Shown here piece after piece: positions 15,618-24,145 of a DNA stretch of 25,360 nucleotides; position 1 is the stretch's first letter; each line of letters starts with the position of its first letter. This DNA comes from Patescibacteria group bacterium (GTDB taxonomy: Bacteria; Patescibacteriota; Patescibacteriia; S139-126). The stretch spans positions 1 through 25,360 of the forward strand of contig WFTD01000118.1 of the NCBI GenBank assembly GCA_015485755.1. The letters are read 5' to 3'. The translations under genes were made by a program, and so were the position numbers. The notes under the pieces were generated by a model that was not told where the DNA came from, did no database searches, and saw only the letters and a program-made list of their open reading frames with translations.

Positions 15618-16107
15618 TATCACAGTGCTGGGCATTGATCCTGGTTTTGCTATAACTGGCTACGGCATAATACAAAAAAAGCGCCAAGACTTGTCAGTTT
15701 TAACCTATGGAGTGATAAAAACCAAATCAACCGAACCGTTTGACCAACGCTTAAAAAAACTTTATCAAGAATTAGAACGGATAATAAAAACATACCATCC
15801 AGAAATAGTAGCTATTGAAGAACTTTACTTTACCAATAACGCTAAAACTGCTATTAAAGTAGGGCAAGCGCGAGGAGTTGTGGTAATGACAGCCGCCCTT
15901 AATAATTTACCAATAAAAAATTACACCCCTTTGCAAATAAAGCAGGCCCTGACTTCTTATGGCAGGGCCGACAAACAGCAGATGCAAAGAATGATAAAAC
16001 AAGTCCTTTCCTTATCAAATATGCCAAAACCAGATGATGCAGCTGATGCTTTGGCGGTAGCCTATACTTGTTTACAATTTTTAACTTCTTCTTATGACAA
16101 CAAATAA
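15604..16107 (+). CDS. ruvC: Holliday junction resolvase RuvC (start reassigned to ATG at 15604)
   Basis: VLGIDPG, AIEELYF, GQARGV, YGRADKQQ, PKPDDAADALAVA. Confidence 0.96.
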   Translation: MPLSNITVLGIDPGFAITGYGIIQKKRQDLSVLTYGVIKTKSTEPFDQRLKKLYQELERIIKTYHPEIVAIEELYFTNNAKTAIKVGQARGVVVMTAALNNLPIKNYTPLQIKQALTSYGRADKQQMQRMIKQVLSLSNMPKPDDAADALAVAYTCLQFLTSSYDNK

Positions 16108-17599
16108 ACTAAATGTCGTTTTGGCAGCCAGTGAAGTTGATCCTTTTTCCAAAACTGGCGGAATGGCCGATGTGTTGCGCTCTCTGCCCAAAGCCTTAAA
16201 ACAAATGGGGCATAATGTATCTGTCTTCACTCCGCTCTACAATTTTATTGATCCAAATAAATACAACTTGACCAAAATAATAAAAAACAAGCAACTGATA
16301 ATTGACTCATCTGCCACTGTTTCTTTTGATGTTTGGCGCGGCGAGATTGATGGTGTTGTGCCGGTCTTTTTTATAGAAGAAAAAAAATTTTTATCTCGTG
16401 ATTATGGGCAGGACAAAAAAATATATACAGGCAATTTTGACAATGCTAGATTTTTAATATTTAATCTGGCTGTGATTGCGGCTATCAAAGAATTGGACTT
16501 AAAACCAGATATTATCCAATGTCATGACTGGCAAACTGGGCTTATACCTTATTTTCTCCACACCAAATTAAAAACTGACAATTATTTTAATAAAGTTGCG
16601 TCTCTTTATACCATCCACAACCTAACCTTTCAAATGGGAAATAATTGGTGGGAAATACCTCTAGAAAAAAGGGAGGATGGCACCGGCCCAATCCCTTCTT
16701 TCTCCAATCAAGAAGGTATTAGGCTGATAAATTTTGCCAAAAGGGCGATTCGTTTTACTGATATTATCAACACTGTGTCTGAACGTTACGCTGAGGAAAT
16801 AATGACCAAAAAATTTGGCAACACTCTTCACCATCTTCTTAAGCAAAGAAAAAATAGGGTTTTTGGTATAATTAATGGGATTGATTATGCTGATTGGAAT
16901 CCTGCTACTGACCCTGGTTTAGTTGCCCAGTACGACTATAATAACCTTGCCAACAAAACCAAAAATAAGCTTTATTTGCAAAAATTTTTAGGACTGCCAG
17001 AAGACCCAACTATTCCTGTGATCGGCTGGACCTCACGTTTAACCGAGCAAAAAGGAATTGAGCTGATAATTAAAATAATTGAACCTTTGTTGAGAATGAA
17101 CATTCAATTGGTTATTTTGGGTGAGGGAACAAAGCGGTATGAGGATTTTTTCAAAAAAATGAGCAAACGCCACCCTAAAAAAATCGCCGCTATGCTCAAT
17201 TTTGATAATCGCAAAGAAACAATGGTGCTTGCTGGCGCTGATATTTTCCTGCTCCCATCCCGCTTTGAACCATGCGGACTGGCCCAGCTTAAAAGTTTGC
17301 GCTATGGTGCTATTCCGGTTGTTCATGCTGTCGGGGGCTTGGCAGACACTATCAGCGACTACAACCCTAAAACTGAAAGCGGCAATGGTTTTGTTTTTAA
17401 AGCTTATGACCCTTATGATTTATTAGCGGCTATCACTAGAGCTTTAGAAAACCACAAACACAGAGACAAGTGGCTGAAATTAGTAAGGCGAGGAATGCGG
17501 CAATCATATGACTGGAAAATTCCAGCGCGAAAATATATAAAACTATTCCGCAAAACAATTAAGTATCACCTTGACCACCATGTCAAAAACCAAAGTTAA
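16094..17599 (+). CDS. glgA: Glycogen/starch synthase (GT5), copy 1
   Basis: KTGGMADV, HDWQ, TIHN, NTVS, GIINGID, SRLTEQKG, PSRFEPCGL, GGLADT. Confidence 0.93.
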   Translation: MTTNKLNVVLAASEVDPFSKTGGMADVLRSLPKALKQMGHNVSVFTPLYNFIDPNKYNLTKIIKNKQLIIDSSATVSFDVWRGEIDGVVPVFFIEEKKFLSRDYGQDKKIYTGNFDNARFLIFNLAVIAAIKELDLKPDIIQCHDWQTGLIPYFLHTKLKTDNYFNKVASLYTIHNLTFQMGNNWWEIPLEKREDGTGPIPSFSNQEGIRLINFAKRAIRFTDIINTVSERYAEEIMTKKFGNTLHHLLKQRKNRVFGIINGIDYADWNPATDPGLVAQYDYNNLANKTKNKLYLQKFLGLPEDPTIPVIGWTSRLTEQKGIELIIKIIEPLLRMNIQLVILGEGTKRYEDFFKKMSKRHPKKIAAMLNFDNRKETMVLAGADIFLLPSRFEPCGLAQLKSLRYGAIPVVHAVGGLADTISDYNPKTESGNGFVFKAYDPYDLLAAITRALENHKHRDKWLKLVRRGMRQSYDWKIPARKYIKLFRKTIKYHLDHHVKNQS

Positions 17600-18740
17600 A
17601 TGGGTAAACTTCCTTCACTTTTACCTTCCACCACATAGCGATGAATACACTGTAAGAGAAGCGGCTGAAAAAAGCTATTTATGGTTAATAAAGATGGCTA
17701 AACAAAACCGCCGGTTTGTTTTTACTTTCAACATCACTGCTTGTTTAACAGAATTGCTGATTGAATATGGTTATGAAGCGATCATAAAAGATTTATCAAA
17801 ATTGGTAAAAAAGGGGCAGTTGGAACTGGTTGACTCTTTGGCCTTTCACCCCCTAGCACCCCTCCTCCCCCCTTCAGAAATAACTAGACAAATAAAGCTT
17901 AATCAAAAAATAAACCGCTCTCATTTTGGTGTAAAAGCTAAGGGATTTTTTCTGCCTGAAATGGCCTATTCACCTGCCGTAGGAAAAATAATAGCAGGCT
18001 TAAAATATAGCTGGCTGATTTTGGACGAAATATCATTATCAGGCAAAAGAGGGTTTGTTGACTGGCAAACAAAATATATCCTTAAAAAAACCAACCTAAA
18101 AATCATATTCCGCTCATGGTATTGGTCAAAGGATTATGTTCCCCGCCGCATAATTCACCACTACAAGGAAAATAACTTGCCACAAATTATTGTTTCAGCC
18201 ACTGACGCTGAACTGTATGGACTAAGATTTGCTGATGAAAAAAATTGGCTCAACCAAGCTCTCAATGTTCCTTATTTATTACCACTAACTATTAGCGATT
18301 ACCTGCGCCGCTTAAAAAAAATCAAACCAATATCCCCAATATCATCTAACTGGGAAAGTTTGGAACAAGAAATTAAACAGGGAATTCCCTATGCGCTCTG
18401 GAGACACCCCCGCAACAAAATCCAACAACAATTATGGCAACTTGCTAAAATAGCCTGGCAAAATATTAACAAACACACCAATTACCACAATTATTTCTGG
18501 GCACGCCGCCATCTTGACTGGGGGCTTGCTAGTTGTACTTTTTGGTGGGCTTCTGATCGTGACTTTAGGCTGTTGGGGCCTCCAGCTTGGAAGCCAGACG
18601 AGGTTGAAAGAGGCGCAACTGAATTGATAAAATCTATCCGCACCCTACCACTATCACCATCAACCAAAATAAAAGCAGAAAAAATATTTCACCAAATAAA
18701 ACAAGAATTGTGGATTAAACATTGGCGCAAATATGGCTAA
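17580..18740 (+). CDS. Glycoside hydrolase family 57 protein (start likely ATG at 17580)
   Basis: CSR-1-like FLHFYLP, HPLAPLLP, nucleophile region GFFLPEMAY, acid/base region ATDAELYG, C-terminal SCTFWW. Confidence 0.85.
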   Translation: MSKTKVKWVNFLHFYLPPHSDEYTVREAAEKSYLWLIKMAKQNRRFVFTFNITACLTELLIEYGYEAIIKDLSKLVKKGQLELVDSLAFHPLAPLLPPSEITRQIKLNQKINRSHFGVKAKGFFLPEMAYSPAVGKIIAGLKYSWLILDEISLSGKRGFVDWQTKYILKKTNLKIIFRSWYWSKDYVPRRIIHHYKENNLPQIIVSATDAELYGLRFADEKNWLNQALNVPYLLPLTISDYLRRLKKIKPISPISSNWESLEQEIKQGIPYALWRHPRNKIQQQLWQLAKIAWQNINKHTNYHNYFWARRHLDWGLASCTFWWASDRDFRLLGPPAWKPDEVERGATELIKSIRTLPLSPSTKIKAEKIFHQIKQELWIKHWRKYG

Positions 18741-23203: not shown

Positions 23204-23206
23204 CTT

Positions 23207-24145
23207 ATGCCAGTTGTTTATGATAAACGATCAGAAGTCAGAAAGGATTATTTTCTCAACCGTTACGTTATTATCTCGCCAGCCCGAGCCAAACGCCCCA
23301 AAGATGTAGTTGAAACATCCCACCGTCAACCTGGCCAAAAATGCGTTCTCTGCCCTGAACAGGTAGAAAAAGATTTAATAGTTGACTCAATTGGCGGCAA
23401 AAAAAATTGGCGGGTACTGGCTATTCTCAACAAATACCCAGCTGTAACTCTGGATAATCCCAAAGCCTATGGCCATCAAGAAGTAATTATTGACACTCGT
23501 ATCCATGGCCATGAAATGGGGAGAATGACCCAAAAAGAAATAATGGACGTTCTAAAAATGTATGTAGAAAGAACAAGAAAGGTAGGAAGGATAAAAGGCA
23601 TTGATTATATTCTTATTTTTAAAAATAATGGAGGTCCGGCCGGAGCTTCTCTTTTACATGAACACTCTCAATTGTTTGCTACAAAAAAAATACCGCCCGA
23701 AGTGTTTTATGAACTAGACAAAGCCCAAGAGCACAAAATCAAACACGGAACTTGCGTGTATGAAGAAATAATTAAACAAGAGGAAAAATCACCTCGCTTT
23801 GTTTGGAAGGACAATAATATTATTGTATTTTGTCCTTATGCATCAATGTATCACTATGAAGTATGGATATTCCCTTTTCGGCACCTGGATAACATTACCA
23901 GATTGAACAAATCAGAACTATCAAGCCTAGCTAAAGCCTTGCAATTAGTTACCAGCAAGCTTAGTCAATACCAAATTCCTTATAACTTTTTTATGCATCA
24001 ATCAGTTTCCCATCAAGATCAACACTTTTATATAAAAGTCCAGCCGCGCGAATCAATCTGGGCAGGGGTTGAACTTGGCAGTGGAATTGTTATCAACTCA
24101 ATCCCTCCAGAAAAAGCTGCTAAATTTTACCAAAAAAGCGAATAA
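23207..24145 (+). CDS. GalT-family (HIT-fold) sugar-1-phosphate nucleotidyltransferase/phosphorylase
   Basis: RAKRP, Zn motif CVLC, NKYPA, GHQEVII, FKN.G..AGASLLHEHSQ, YEVWIFP, AGVELGSG. Confidence 0.88.
   Translation: MPVVYDKRSEVRKDYFLNRYVIISPARAKRPKDVVETSHRQPGQKCVLCPEQVEKDLIVDSIGGKKNWRVLAILNKYPAVTLDNPKAYGHQEVIIDTRIHGHEMGRMTQKEIMDVLKMYVERTRKVGRIKGIDYILIFKNNGGPAGASLLHEHSQLFATKKIPPEVFYELDKAQEHKIKHGTCVYEEIIKQEEKSPRFVWKDNNIIVFCPYASMYHYEVWIFPFRHLDNITRLNKSELSSLAKALQLVTSKLSQYQIPYNFFMHQSVSHQDQHFYIKVQPRESIWAGVELGSGIVINSIPPEKAAKFYQKSE

What the first reader, a model, noticed from the sequence alone, without database searches (positions are those of the whole stretch)
16094..24145. Six-gene alpha-glucan cluster lacking GlgC and GH13 enzymes: possible alternative glycogen pathway
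Seen directly: glgA, GH57, tandem kinase, GT4, glgA and a GalT-like gene, all overlapping or 2-3 nt apart. There is no glgC, GH13 glgB/glgX or glgP in the window. Established: GT5 synthases need NDP-glucose; some GH57 enzymes are branching enzymes or glucanotransferases; a plant GalT-like protein acts as an ADP-glucose phosphorylase. The mycobacterial GlgE route uses a GT4 (GlgM) and a kinase-fold maltokinase. Inference: a self-contained storage-glucan or modified-glucan pathway with non-canonical donor supply and a phosphorylation step.
Basis: partly seen in the sequence, partly recalled or inferred. Interest (0 to 1): 0.66.

Follow-up and report, generated by a model that had tools for sequence, protein, structure and literature searches.

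The report
GlgC-less glycogen-type operon of Patescibacteria
A tiny-genome (Patescibacteria) bacterium from a hydrothermal vent carries a conserved six-gene cluster for a glycogen-like sugar store that lacks the textbook enzymes GlgC, GlgB and GlgP; instead it pairs one glycogen synthase with a relative of the plant ADP-glucose phosphorylase, which may make or drain the store at no ATP cost, though this is not proven.

Summary
Six co-directional cytoplasmic genes lie at 16094-24145: GlgA1, a short GH57, a double APH-fold kinase, a GT4, GlgA2 and a GalT-like HIT enzyme. Junctions are -29, -8, +2, -4 and +3 nt.

Neither the window's 82%-complete genome nor a 99%-complete relative has GlgC, a GH13 enzyme or an alpha-glucan phosphorylase. 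GlgC passed its cut-off in 0 of 401 phylum genomes; GlgA passed in 67.

A census of those 67 genomes shows a recurring core:
- GlgA1 with GH57, and GlgA2 with GalT-like.
- GalT-like lies within 10 kb of GlgA in 29 of the 35 genomes that have both, and is fused to GlgA2 in 3.
- At least 15 fusion clusters exist in public data.
- GalT-linked clusters and GlgP rarely share a genome (3 against 26 and 21).

The kinase usually follows GH57. The tandem form is specific to this family. The GT4 sits in a variable slot and is closest to glucosylsucrose synthase, not GlgM.

The GlgE/GlgM/maltokinase analogy is not. A GalU-like gene elsewhere in the genome keeps plain UDP-glucose supply possible.

This scan has noted the same cluster type at least 22 times on other DNA. 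No paper describing it was found.

The parts
16094..17599 (+). GlgA1: GT5 glycogen/starch synthase, the paralog lineage that sits next to GH57
   Evidence: TIGR02095 484 bits against a cut-off of 328. It falls in the clade holding all 40 GH57-adjacent GlgAs, SH-aLRT 98. D137, H161, R300, K305, E377, K15 and F355 (E. coli numbering) are kept.
17571..18740 (+). Short GH57 glucan-active enzyme (389 aa; alternative start ATG 17580)
   Evidence: PF03065 88 bits. Glu130 in LPEMAY and Asp212 in TDAELYG align with the catalytic pair of GH57 branching enzymes and are invariant in 38 homologs. AlphaFold model pLDDT 94.8; all top fold hits are GH57, TMq 0.64-0.72. 928 homologs at E<=1e-10; source names, where given, are Patescibacteria.
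18733..19737 (+). Tandem kinase, N-terminal APH-fold domain (residues 1 to about 335)
   Evidence: HGDFNPKN at residue 203 and IDWSD. Best relatives outside the family are the N-domains of the f15-type double kinases, 48 bits.
19750..20763 (+). Tandem kinase, C-terminal APH-fold domain (residues about 340-676)
   Evidence: PF01636. HGDLQPQN at residue 544 and IDFD. Best relatives outside the family are the single-domain kinases of other clusters, 48-54 bits. Fold hits are generic small-molecule kinases.
20766..21800 (+). GT4 retaining glucosyltransferase of the TeGSS/BGluT type, in a variable accessory slot
   Evidence: PDB 7FG9/8X3Q (TeGSS) E 2.4e-56 over residues 1-340; UDP-glucose:tetrahydrobiopterin glucosyltransferase E 5e-28; GlgM 6TVP E 2e-7. 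In relatives the slot holds an orphan of about 193 aa, or an APH plus an epimerase.
21797..23203 (+). GlgA2: GT5 glycogen/starch synthase, the paralog lineage that sits next to (or is fused with) GalT-like
   Evidence: TIGR02095 526 bits. Lies outside the GlgA1 clade, with 22 of the 23 GlgAs followed by GalT. Catalytic residues, K15 and an aromatic at 355 are kept.
23207..24145 (+). GalT-like HIT-family nucleotidyltransferase (class I GalT / ADP-glucose phosphorylase branch)
   Evidence: Best solved relative is At5g18200 (1z84), E 1.5e-39; P. aerophilum GalT 3e-33; E. coli GalT 5e-14. C52, C55, H115, H164, H166 and Q168 equivalents are kept. Adjacent to or fused with GlgA in 24 genomes of 14 families.
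14904..16107 (+). yebC and ruvC, co-directional and overlapping the start of glgA1 (context; probably the same transcription unit)
   Evidence: for identity. ruvC ends 14 nt inside glgA1. The same tig / yebC-ruvC-cluster / tyrS order is seen in L007, L009 and L010.

Best explanation
The six genes are one lineage's version of a cytoplasmic alpha-glucan (glycogen-like) operon that is widespread in Patescibacteria and replaces the textbook GlgC-GlgB-GlgP enzymes. I read it as three modules.

1. GlgA1 plus GH57 elongates and remodels an alpha-1,4-glucan. GH57 would branch or disproportionate it. It is the only glucan-cutting enzyme found.

2. GlgA2 plus the GalT-like HIT enzyme handles the nucleotide sugar. 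The GalT-like enzyme interconverts ADP-glucose + Pi with glucose-1-phosphate + ADP through its His-nucleotidyl intermediate. ADP then cycles between the two enzymes, and the pair is the net equivalent of a reversible glucan phosphorylase: glucan(n) + G1P <-> glucan(n+1) + Pi. This would account for the lack of both GlgC (supply) and GlgP (mobilisation).

3. An accessory slot holds the double kinase, which is positionally coupled to GH57. It phosphorylates a sugar, a malto-oligosaccharide or the glucan itself; the substrate is unknown. In this subgroup the slot also holds a TeGSS-like GT4 that adds glucose to an unknown acceptor.

Shown here: gene content, conservation, paralog split, fusions, intact catalytic motifs, absences and the distribution pattern. 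Inferred: every enzymatic activity, the nucleotide used, and the direction of flux.
For: Absences:
- No GlgC, GH13, GT35 or TIGR02094 phosphorylase in the window's genome or in G295, which is 99% complete.
- GlgC was over its cut-off in 0 of 401 phylum genomes, against 67 for GlgA.

Cluster conservation:
- In the census of the 67 GlgA-positive genomes (36 families), GH57 lies within 10 kb of GlgA in 46, GalT-like in 29 and APH in 22.
- There are two old GlgA lineages tied to GH57 and to GalT respectively. Both are catalytically intact.

GalT-like enzyme:
- Its best solved relative is the ADP-glucose phosphorylase. HxHxQ is kept in all copies, including fused ones.
- GlgA2::GalT fusions occur in 3 families of the sample, and at least 15 fusion clusters exist in public data, plus GH57::GalT fusions.
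- G081, a fusion genome that is 97% complete, has no PF00483 or PF12804 nucleotidyltransferase and no GalU.

Complementarity with GlgP:
- GalT-linked clusters and GlgP co-occur in 3 genomes, against 26 with GalT only and 21 with GlgP only. Odds ratio 0.09, naive p 2e-4; family level p 0.04.
- GlgA2-type against GlgP gives [[6,39],[17,4]].
- Phylogenetically independent pairs: 0 the same way, about 5 opposite.

Kinase:
- 14 of 23 kinase genes sit directly downstream of a GH57.
Against: - The window's genome has a GalU-like gene (316 bits against a cut-off of 327) and other sugar-1-phosphate nucleotidyltransferases. 59 of 61 other GlgA-positive genomes also have a PF00483 enzyme. UDP-glucose could therefore feed GlgA directly.
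- About half of the GlgA-positive genomes have no GalT-like hit (35 of 67, counted by hand). The closest GalT-like orthologs (42-48% identity) occur in GlgA-less genomes, several of them next to a GT4 or a mechanosensitive-channel-like gene.
- Nucleotide specificity (ADP or UDP) cannot be read from the sequence. The second-best solved relative is annotated as a true GalT.
- The complementarity with GlgP is only marginal once relatedness is allowed for (median p 0.06).
- 17 genomes have neither GlgP nor a linked GalT.
- No expression data: no RNA run was listed.
Confidence: 0.5

Rival explanations
1. Ordinary glycogen synthesis fed by UDP-glucose from GalU. Both GlgAs use UDP-glucose made by the GalU-like enzyme elsewhere in the genome. 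The GalT-like enzyme is a genuine hexose-1-phosphate uridylyltransferase that only balances UDP-hexose and hexose-1-phosphate pools, for example UDP-sugar + G1P <-> UDP-glucose + sugar-1-P. Degradation is hydrolytic, by GH57.
For: A GalU-like gene is present in G000, G295, G267 and G175. PF00483 enzymes occur in 59 of 61 other GlgA-positive genomes. The GalT-like protein scores 92.9 against the galT_1 cut-off of 102.1. The second-best PDB match is annotated as galactose-1-phosphate uridylyltransferase (6k5z), and a preprint lists P. aerophilum GalT among the class I GalTs (10.64898/2026.09.13.751320). Many GlgA1 proteins have lost K15 and the aromatic at 355, which in my recollection contact ADP-glucose in E. 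coli GlgA; this hints at a different donor.
Against: No galK or galE sits in the window's cluster. G081 has the fusion but no GalU or other PF00483/PF12804 enzyme. A fusion to GlgA, and the GlgA2 lineage keeping the ADP-type residues, fit a closed ADP cycle better than a uridylyl exchange, which cannot reuse the UDP that GlgA releases. This rival does not explain the complementarity with GlgP.
Confidence: 0.25
2. The cluster mainly makes a soluble glucosyl-oligosaccharide or phosphorylated sugar (a stress or compatible solute) rather than storage glycogen. The TeGSS-like GT4, the kinase and, in relatives, the PHP phosphatase would act through a phospho-intermediate.
For: The GT4 is closest to glucosylsucrose synthase, a stress-oligosaccharide enzyme (PMC9909042). 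APH followed by PHP is a fixed gene pair in 5 families. GalT-like orthologs in GlgA-less genomes sit next to a GT4 and a mechanosensitive-channel-like gene.
Against: Two full-scoring GT5 glucan synthases and a GH57 form the conserved core. The GT4 is absent from most family members and from many clusters. The window has no PHP gene. The residue aligned with TeGSS Tyr18 is not Tyr.
Confidence: 0.12
3. A GlgE-like maltose-1-phosphate route. The kinase would be a maltokinase, the GT4 a GlgM-type maltose-1-phosphate synthase, and another enzyme (GH57) would polymerise maltose-1-phosphate.
For: Both belong to the right superfamilies: APH fold for the kinase, GT4 for the transferase. As I recall it, Mak, NahK and MtnK are all APH-fold kinases that act on the anomeric position.
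Against: There is no GH13 in the genome or in five relatives, so no GlgE or TreS. GlgM matches at only 2e-7 against 2.4e-56 for TeGSS. No maltokinase appears among the top 50 fold hits. The GT4 is not conserved with the kinase.
Confidence: 0.05
4. The kinase is regulatory. It would be a protein kinase acting on GlgA or GH57, paired in relatives with a PHP-type protein phosphatase, as with the CpsB/CpsD control of capsule synthesis.
For: Some double kinases of other families hit the protein-kinase Pfam model (L054, E 3e-10). The APH-then-PHP pairing is fixed. From memory, CpsB is a PHP-family phosphatase.
Against: All top fold matches are small-molecule kinases. The positional coupling is to GH57 rather than to GlgA.
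Confidence: 0.08

Closest known systems
Classical bacterial glycogen pathway (E. coli glgBXCAP)
   Same: GT5 GlgA with all catalytic residues. The product is presumably a cytoplasmic alpha-1,4-glucan.
   Different: No GlgC, no GH13 GlgB or GlgX, no GT35 GlgP. There are two GlgA paralogs with distinct partners, and a GH57, a GalT-like enzyme, a kinase and a GT4 stand in their place.
Arabidopsis At5g18200 ADP-glucose phosphorylase (PDB 1Z84, 2H39), class I GalT branch of the HIT superfamily
   Same: Best solved relative, E 1.5e-39 over the full length. HxHxQ and the Cys2His2 zinc site are kept.
   Different: The activity here is untested. The bacterial protein is shorter (312 against 351 aa). 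It is operonic with, or fused to, a glycogen synthase, a context not known for the plant enzyme.
GH57 enzymes: Thermus and Thermococcus branching enzymes (3P0B, 3N8T) and T. litoralis 4-alpha-glucanotransferase (1K1W)
   Same: Same fold (TMq 0.66-0.72) and the same catalytic Glu/Asp pair.
   Different: It is about 130 aa shorter and lacks the insert between the catalytic regions. It scores far below the curated branching-enzyme models: 43 bits against a cut-off of 920. Its specificity cannot be assigned.
Glucosylsucrose synthase TeGSS (tll1591; PDB 7FG9; PMC9909042)
   Same: A GT4 of the same size with a full-length match at E 2.4e-56. The Arg179 and Lys184 equivalents are kept.
   Different: The Tyr18 equivalent is Ile. 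No sucrose-phosphate synthase is nearby. The acceptor is unknown.
Mycobacterial GlgE pathway (TreS-Mak, GlgM, GlgE)
   Same: It uses an APH-fold kinase and a GT4 in alpha-glucan synthesis.
   Different: No GlgE or TreS (GH13). The GT4 is not GlgM-like, and the kinase is no closer to Mak than to any other APH enzyme.
Bifidobacterial GNB/LNB pathway (NahK plus GalT2; preprint 10.64898/2026.09.13.751320)
   Same: An APH-fold sugar kinase is encoded together with a GalT-family enzyme.
   Different: Here the kinase tracks GH57 and the GalT-like enzyme tracks GlgA2. Each occurs without the other in many genomes. There is no phosphorylase or GalE.

Membership tests
Classical GlgC-GlgA-GlgB glycogen pathway | GT5 ADP-glucose-type glycogen synthase | tested here: met
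   TIGR02095 at 484 and 526 bits against a cut-off of 328. Catalytic residues are kept.
Classical GlgC-GlgA-GlgB glycogen pathway | GlgC, ADP-glucose pyrophosphorylase | tested here: not met
   The best TIGR02091 hit in the window's genome is 35.8 bits against a cut-off of 424.9. None was over the cut-off in 401 phylum genomes, including the 99%-complete G295. The window's genome is only 82% complete.
Classical GlgC-GlgA-GlgB glycogen pathway | GH13 branching enzyme GlgB, and GlgP | tested here: not met
   No TIGR01515, PF00128, PF00343 or TIGR02094 match in G000. No PF00128, PF00343 or TIGR02094 match in G295; TIGR01515 was searched in G000 only.
ADP-glucose phosphorylase / class I GalT (HIT superfamily) | HxHxQ motif with the nucleophilic second His; Cys2His2 zinc site | tested here: met
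   C52, C55, H115, H164, H166 and Q168 equivalents are present. The motif reads LLHEHSQ in the alignment to 1z84.
ADP-glucose phosphorylase / class I GalT (HIT superfamily) | Closer to At5g18200 than to the Leloir-pathway GalT of E. coli | tested here: met
   139 bits to 1z84, 119 bits to 6k5z (annotated GalT) and 55 bits to E. coli GalT. It lies below the galT_1 equivalog cut-off.
ADP-glucose phosphorylase / class I GalT (HIT superfamily) | Phosphorolysis of ADP-glucose, i.e. the nucleotide and acceptor specificity | not testable with these tools
   This needs an enzyme assay. I know of no reliable sequence signature.
GH57 glycogen branching enzyme | Catalytic Glu nucleophile and Asp acid/base | tested here: met
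   Glu130 and Asp212 align with those of 3n8t and 1ufa. They are invariant in 38 homologs.
GH57 glycogen branching enzyme | Membership of a curated branching-enzyme model; full-length architecture of about 520 aa | tested here: not met
   NF041566 scores 42.6 bits against a cut-off of 920, and matches only residues 75-136. The protein is 389 aa. About 85 residues between the two catalytic regions are missing relative to 3n8t.
GlgE pathway (Mak, GlgM, GlgE) | GlgE or TreS of GH13 | tested here: not met
   No PF00128 match in G000 or in five relatives.
GlgE pathway (Mak, GlgM, GlgE) | GT4 of the GlgM type | tested here: not met
   TIGR02149 scores 69.5 bits against a cut-off of 302. 6TVP matches at E 2e-7 over a partial region, against TeGSS at E 2.4e-56 full-length.
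GlgE pathway (Mak, GlgM, GlgE) | Kinase of the maltokinase type | tested here: inconclusive
   It has an APH fold with intact motifs. The top 50 fold hits are other small-molecule kinases, with no entry named as a maltokinase among them. By sequence only APH(3') matches, at E 2e-3.
Glucosylsucrose synthase (TeGSS) family | Full-length similarity; Arg179 and Tyr18, which the paper shows matter for activity | tested here: inconclusive
   E 2.4e-56 over residues 1-340. The Arg179 and Lys184 equivalents are kept, but the Tyr18 equivalent is Ile (PMC9909042).

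The most novel reading that the evidence does not exclude
GlgA2 and the GalT-like enzyme, whether separate or naturally fused, together form a two-step, ADP-cycling alpha-glucan phosphorylase and synthase. GlgA2 runs reversibly between glucan and ADP-glucose. The HIT enzyme exchanges ADP-glucose + Pi for glucose-1-phosphate + ADP. With only a catalytic amount of ADP, the pair would replace both GlgC and the GT35 phosphorylase GlgP. This would also give a physiological role to the ADP-glucose phosphorylase family, whose function in plants is unknown as far as I recall.
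Probability: 0.3. Interest if true: 0.85.

Novelty: new variant of a known kind. Interest (0 to 1): 0.68.

Why it matters
Glycogen metabolism is taught as GlgC-GlgA-GlgB-GlgP, or as the GlgE route. A whole radiation of ultra-small bacteria appears to run it without GlgC. Many of them also lack GlgP, and use a HIT-family enzyme that is repeatedly fused to a glycogen synthase.

If the pair works as proposed, storage and mobilisation would cost no ATP beyond making glucose-1-phosphate. That fits organisms with minimal energy budgets. It would also assign a role to the ADP-glucose phosphorylase family.

The conserved, GH57-coupled kinases, with a PHP phosphoesterase in some lineages, point to an undescribed phosphorylation step in bacterial glucan metabolism. 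All of this can be tested directly with a handful of recombinant proteins.

Tried and rejected
- Promoter and terminator scans of 14600-24400 gave background counts: 28 against 26.6 expected, and 13 against 9.6. They give no evidence on the operon's boundaries.
- The protein atlas returned only generic APH clusters for both kinase halves.
- The word-based search with the tandem kinase found only 6 relatives, and the genome search found it only in the window's own family. Both missed the divergent double kinases of f15, f75 and f110, which the census later revealed.
- The PF01704 (UDPGP) search is uninformative because its controls did not ring.
- No RNA run was listed, so co-transcription could not be checked.
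- The family-level Fisher test was wrong because families with neither feature were not counted. It was redone (p 0.041).
- I considered a GNB/LNB-like salvage pair of kinase plus GalT and rejected it. The two genes belong to different modules and occur without each other.
- I rejected GlgM as the identity of the GT4.
- Fold search cannot tell a branching enzyme from a 4-alpha-glucanotransferase for the GH57.

Full report
**Observation.** The window is a whole 25,360-base contig (C118) of an 831-kb assembly in 129 contigs, estimated 81.7% complete. Six + strand ORFs occupy 16094-24145. Their family assignments:
- GlgA, TIGR02095 484 bits.
- A 389-aa GH57.
- A 676-aa protein with two APH domains.
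- A 344-aa GT4.
- A second GlgA, 526 bits.
- A 312-aa GalT-like HIT protein: 92.9 bits against the galT_1 cut-off of 102.1, with DUF4921/DUF4931 hits.

The junctions are -29, -8, +2, -4 and +3 nt. glgA1 overlaps the upstream ruvC by 14 nt, and tyrS converges 5 nt after the last gene. None of the six proteins has a transmembrane-like segment.

**What the rest of the genome holds.**
- No GlgC: the best hit is 35.8 bits against a cut-off of 424.9.
- No GH13 branching enzyme and no other PF00128 protein.
- No glucan phosphorylase by PF00343 or TIGR02094.
- No second GH57, no GH15 and no GH77.

The same families (GlgC, PF00128, PF00343, TIGR02094, GH15, GH77) are also missing from G295, a 99%-complete genome of the same family. 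The absences are therefore unlikely to come from the missing 18% of the assembly.

Present elsewhere in the genome are:
- a GalU-like protein (C91, 316 bits against a cut-off of 327), an RmlA-like protein, and a third sugar-1-phosphate nucleotidyltransferase;
- one PMM/PGM/GlmM-type mutase.

The cluster is therefore not strictly self-contained.

**Origin.** The DNA comes from hydrothermal vent metagenomes. Names attached to homologs place it in Patescibacteria/Parcubacteria. One relative is labelled Candidatus Paceibacter.

**Conservation in the family.** The tandem kinase has few relatives. Every locus that carries it keeps the order GlgA1, GH57, tandem kinase, a variable slot, GlgA2, GalT-like. 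The loci checked are L007, L009, L010 and L123-L126, down to 33-35% kinase identity. Where the flanks were annotated (L007, L009, L010), they are tig, yebC and ruvC on one side and tyrS on the other. The slot holds:
- the GT4, only in the window, L007 and L009;
- an orphan of about 193 aa without any family match in four loci;
- a third APH plus an epimerase-like gene in G295.

The kinase is conserved with the cluster. The GT4 is not.

**Phylum-wide census.** In an even sample of 401 genomes of the phylum:
- GlgA passes its cut-off in 67 genomes;
- GlgC passes in none; the one near miss, in G390, carries an in-frame TAA;
- a GalT-like protein is found in 182. That tally includes G154, an unpublished genome; no other claim here rests on it.

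I fetched the DNA around every GlgA of the 67 genomes, which span 36 families. I annotated it with the window's proteins plus Pfam-verified seeds. Within 10 kb of a GlgA there is:

| Gene | Genomes | Families |
|---|---|---|
| GH57 | 46 | 25 |
| GalT-like | 29 | 17 |
| APH kinase | 22 | 16 |
| Double kinase (560 aa or more) | 9 | 4 |
| GT4 | 25 | 14 |
| PHP phosphoesterase | 5 | 5 |

The PHP gene always lies immediately after an APH gene. A typical order is GlgA1, short GH57, long GH57, kinase/GT4/PHP, GlgA2, GalT-like. The window's family keeps only the short GH57.

**Two GlgA lineages.** A tree of 108 GlgAs puts all 40 GH57-adjacent copies in one clade (SH-aLRT 98). Of the 23 copies that are followed by GalT, 22 fall outside it. 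Aligned to E. coli GlgA, both lineages keep D137, H161, R300, K305 and E377. The GalT-linked lineage also keeps K15 (22 of 23) and an aromatic at 355 (F in 22 of 23). Many GlgA1 proteins have S or N at 15 and P at 355. In my recollection those two residues contact ADP-glucose in E. coli GlgA. The window's GlgA1 still has K and F.

**The GalT-like enzyme.**
- Its best solved relative is Arabidopsis At5g18200, an ADP-glucose phosphorylase (E 1.5e-39). A 318-aa chain annotated as galactose-1-phosphate uridylyltransferase (6k5z, which I take to be the P. aerophilum enzyme) follows at 3e-33, and E. coli GalT at 5e-14.
- The zinc ligands and H-x-H-x-Q are present here. H-x-H-x-Q is present in all 39 other copies examined, fused ones included.
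- By my hand count, 35 of the 67 GlgA-positive genomes have a GalT-like gene. In 29 of those it lies within 10 kb of GlgA. It is directly adjacent or fused in 24.
- Three sampled families have a single GlgA2::GalT protein of 737-827 aa.
- A search restricted to long proteins found at least 15 distinct fusion clusters of this kind. It also found GH57::GalT fusions. One GlgA::GalT fusion lies beside a GH57 glucanotransferase, a glucose-6-phosphate isomerase and an NTP-transferase::PGM fusion.
- G081, a 97%-complete fusion genome, has no PF00483 or PF12804 nucleotidyltransferase and no GalU. Its fused GalT domain is the only visible route to a nucleotide-glucose.

Against a general claim:
- 59 of 61 other GlgA-positive genomes do have a PF00483 enzyme.
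- The closest GalT-like orthologs also occur in GlgA-less genomes, several of them next to a GT4 or a mechanosensitive-channel-like gene.

**Relation to GlgP.** Genuine alpha-glucan phosphorylases (TIGR02094, 434-459 bits against a cut-off of 192) occur in 24 of the 67 genomes. Two models agree on exactly which 24.

| Genomes (of 67) | GlgP present | GlgP absent |
|---|---|---|
| GalT linked to GlgA | 3 | 26 |
| No linked GalT | 21 | 17 |

- Odds ratio 0.09, naive p 2e-4. At family level the counts are 3, 14, 10 and 9, p 0.04.
- Genomes with GlgP but no linked GalT mostly have a single GlgA (18 of 21). GalT-linked genomes have two (23 of 26).
- Presence of a GlgA2-type gene against GlgP gives [[6,39],[17,4]].
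- With phylogenetically independent pairs on a GlgA1 tree, GlgA2 never goes the same way as GlgP. It goes the opposite way in about 5 of 10 pairs (median p 0.06).

The direction is consistent, but the support is modest once relatedness is allowed for.

**Mechanistic reading of GlgA2 plus GalT-like (inference).** A HIT enzyme of this branch works through a covalent His-NMP intermediate; this is established, and summarised in the preprint read. If it acts as At5g18200 does, then ADP + G1P <-> ADP-glucose + Pi. GlgA returns the ADP. The net reaction is that of a glucan phosphorylase, reversible, with ADP acting as a carrier.

From memory and unchecked, the plant enzyme favours phosphorolysis about 5- to 40-fold and has a micromolar Km for ADP-glucose. 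That would fit a role in scavenging the small amount of ADP-glucose that a reversed synthase could form.

This one idea explains four things: the missing GlgC, the missing GlgP, the fusions, and why the GalT-linked GlgA lineage keeps ADP-type residues. It remains untested. A uridylyl-exchange role with UDP-glucose from GalU is the main rival.

**GH57.** Glu130 (LPEMAY) and Asp212 (TDAELYG) align with the catalytic pair of solved GH57 branching enzymes. They are invariant in 38 homologs. The model is confident (pLDDT 94.8). It matches 4-alpha-glucanotransferase, branching enzymes, AmyC and amylopullulanase about equally well (TMq 0.64-0.72). The protein is about 130 aa shorter than branching enzymes and scores far below the curated branching models. 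The long GH57 of other clusters shares the same core at 30% identity and also fails those models. This is a large Patescibacteria family with 928 hits at E<=1e-10, mostly annotated as hypothetical or polysaccharide deacetylase. Its specificity is open. It is the only candidate for branching or cleavage in this genome.

**Kinase.**
- Both halves keep the catalytic HGDxxPxN and the Mg-binding Asp, so neither looks like a pseudokinase.
- The model (pLDDT 82) matches PsiK, choline and ethanolamine kinases, macrolide 2'-phosphotransferases and aminoglycoside phosphotransferases. The macrolide and aminoglycoside enzymes phosphorylate sugar hydroxyls. No maltokinase or NahK structure is in the top 50; one MtnK-containing model ranks 49th.
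- The C-terminal half resembles the single-domain kinases of other clusters. The N-terminal half weakly resembles the N-domain of the f15-type double kinases, which form their own lineage. This suggests a separate fusion.
- Across the census, 14 of 23 kinase genes (9 families) lie immediately downstream of a GH57, and 5 are followed by a PHP phosphoesterase.
- Seven of the 17 genomes with neither GlgP nor a linked GalT carry a double kinase.

I infer that the kinase acts on a GH57 substrate or product, meaning glucose, maltose, malto-oligosaccharide or the glucan. I cannot say which.

**GT4.** Its closest solved relative is glucosylsucrose synthase TeGSS (E 2.4e-56, full length). UDP-glucose:tetrahydrobiopterin glucosyltransferase comes next, and GlgM is remote. 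TeGSS uses UDP-glucose and builds alpha-1,2-glucosyl oligomers on sucrose (PMC9909042). The Arg179 and Lys184 equivalents are kept; Tyr18 is not. Homologs of this GT4 recur in clusters of 14 families, but the gene is optional within the window's own family. It is best seen as an accessory glucosyltransferase with an unknown acceptor.

**Literature and earlier notes.**
- Searches for ADP-glucose phosphorylase with glycogen synthase, and for Patescibacteria, CPR or Parcubacteria with glycogen terms, found no description of this arrangement.
- One CPR genome paper only remarks that starch or glycogen genes are present (PMC5220378).
- A large 2024 review of prokaryotic alpha-glucan enzymes does not mention these phyla in the text held, which covers its first 300,000 characters.
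- The library is incomplete, so this is absence of evidence only.
- Within this scan the same cluster type has been noted at least 22 times in other genomes, with similar conclusions. The lead that the kinase tracks GH57 came from those notes and was confirmed here for adjacency. I saw no GH57::kinase fusion in my sample.

**Limits.**
- All functions are inferred from sequence, fold and gene neighbourhood.
- Genomes are metagenome-assembled, and some loci end at contig edges.
- My ORF calls are mechanical, and seed-based annotation can miss divergent members, PHP and APH especially.
- Related genomes are not independent observations.
- No expression data could be obtained.

Noticed in passing
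L040:6450-7985 (G175 C4): The long GH57 of this cluster carries a C-terminal stretch (residues 438-501) that matches the C-terminal (UVR) end of UvrB at 25.8 bits.
   Followed up: partly
P0141, P0145, P0146, P0147; L127:9001-11634: These proteins of 575-880 aa fuse a GH57 domain to a GalT-like domain. This is a second kind of fusion that ties the HIT enzyme to glucan enzymes. The one locus examined has no GlgA nearby.
   Followed up: partly
L128:4290-6788 and 9001-14260: A GlgA::GalT fusion (811 aa) is followed by a GH57 of the 4-alpha-glucanotransferase type and a cupin-type glucose-6-phosphate isomerase. An 832-aa NTP-transferase::PGM/PMM fusion lies upstream. The organism is not identified and may lie outside Patescibacteria.
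   Followed up: no
G390:C6:117554-118654: This is the only near-GlgC in 401 phylum genomes: 409.8 bits against a cut-off of 424.9. It has one in-frame TAA, so it may be a pseudogene, a sequencing error or a recent acquisition.
   Followed up: no
L124, L125, L126: Three MAG records that carry this Patescibacteria-type cluster are titled 'uncultured Gammaproteobacteria bacterium'. The labels look wrong.
   Followed up: partly
L010:7459-8034; L123:11047-11631; L124:11048-11629; L126:11048-11632: An orphan ORF of about 193 aa occupies the slot that the GT4 fills in the window. L010's copy has no Pfam hit on record and no NCBIfam match; the other three copies were not scanned against family libraries.
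   Followed up: partly
L024, L021, L026, L028, L035 (GalT-like orthologs in genomes without GlgA): Close orthologs of the window's GalT-like protein (42-48% identity) occur in GlgA-less genomes. L024, L021 and L026 have a GT4 of about 400 aa next to it; L024 and L035 have a small mechanosensitive-channel-like gene. L028 has neighbours of similar size that were not scanned. This hints at a second role in glucoside or solute synthesis.
   Followed up: partly
L054:7162-8931 and its counterparts in f15, f75 and f110: A separate lineage of double kinases of 585-606 aa (an APH-like domain plus a protein-kinase/WaaP-like domain) follows the long GH57. These genomes have neither GlgP nor a linked GalT-like gene.
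   Followed up: partly
window 14904-16107: yebC and ruvC run straight into glgA1; ruvC overlaps it by 14 nt. The arrangement is conserved in the family, so a recombination gene and the glucan genes probably share a transcript.
   Followed up: no
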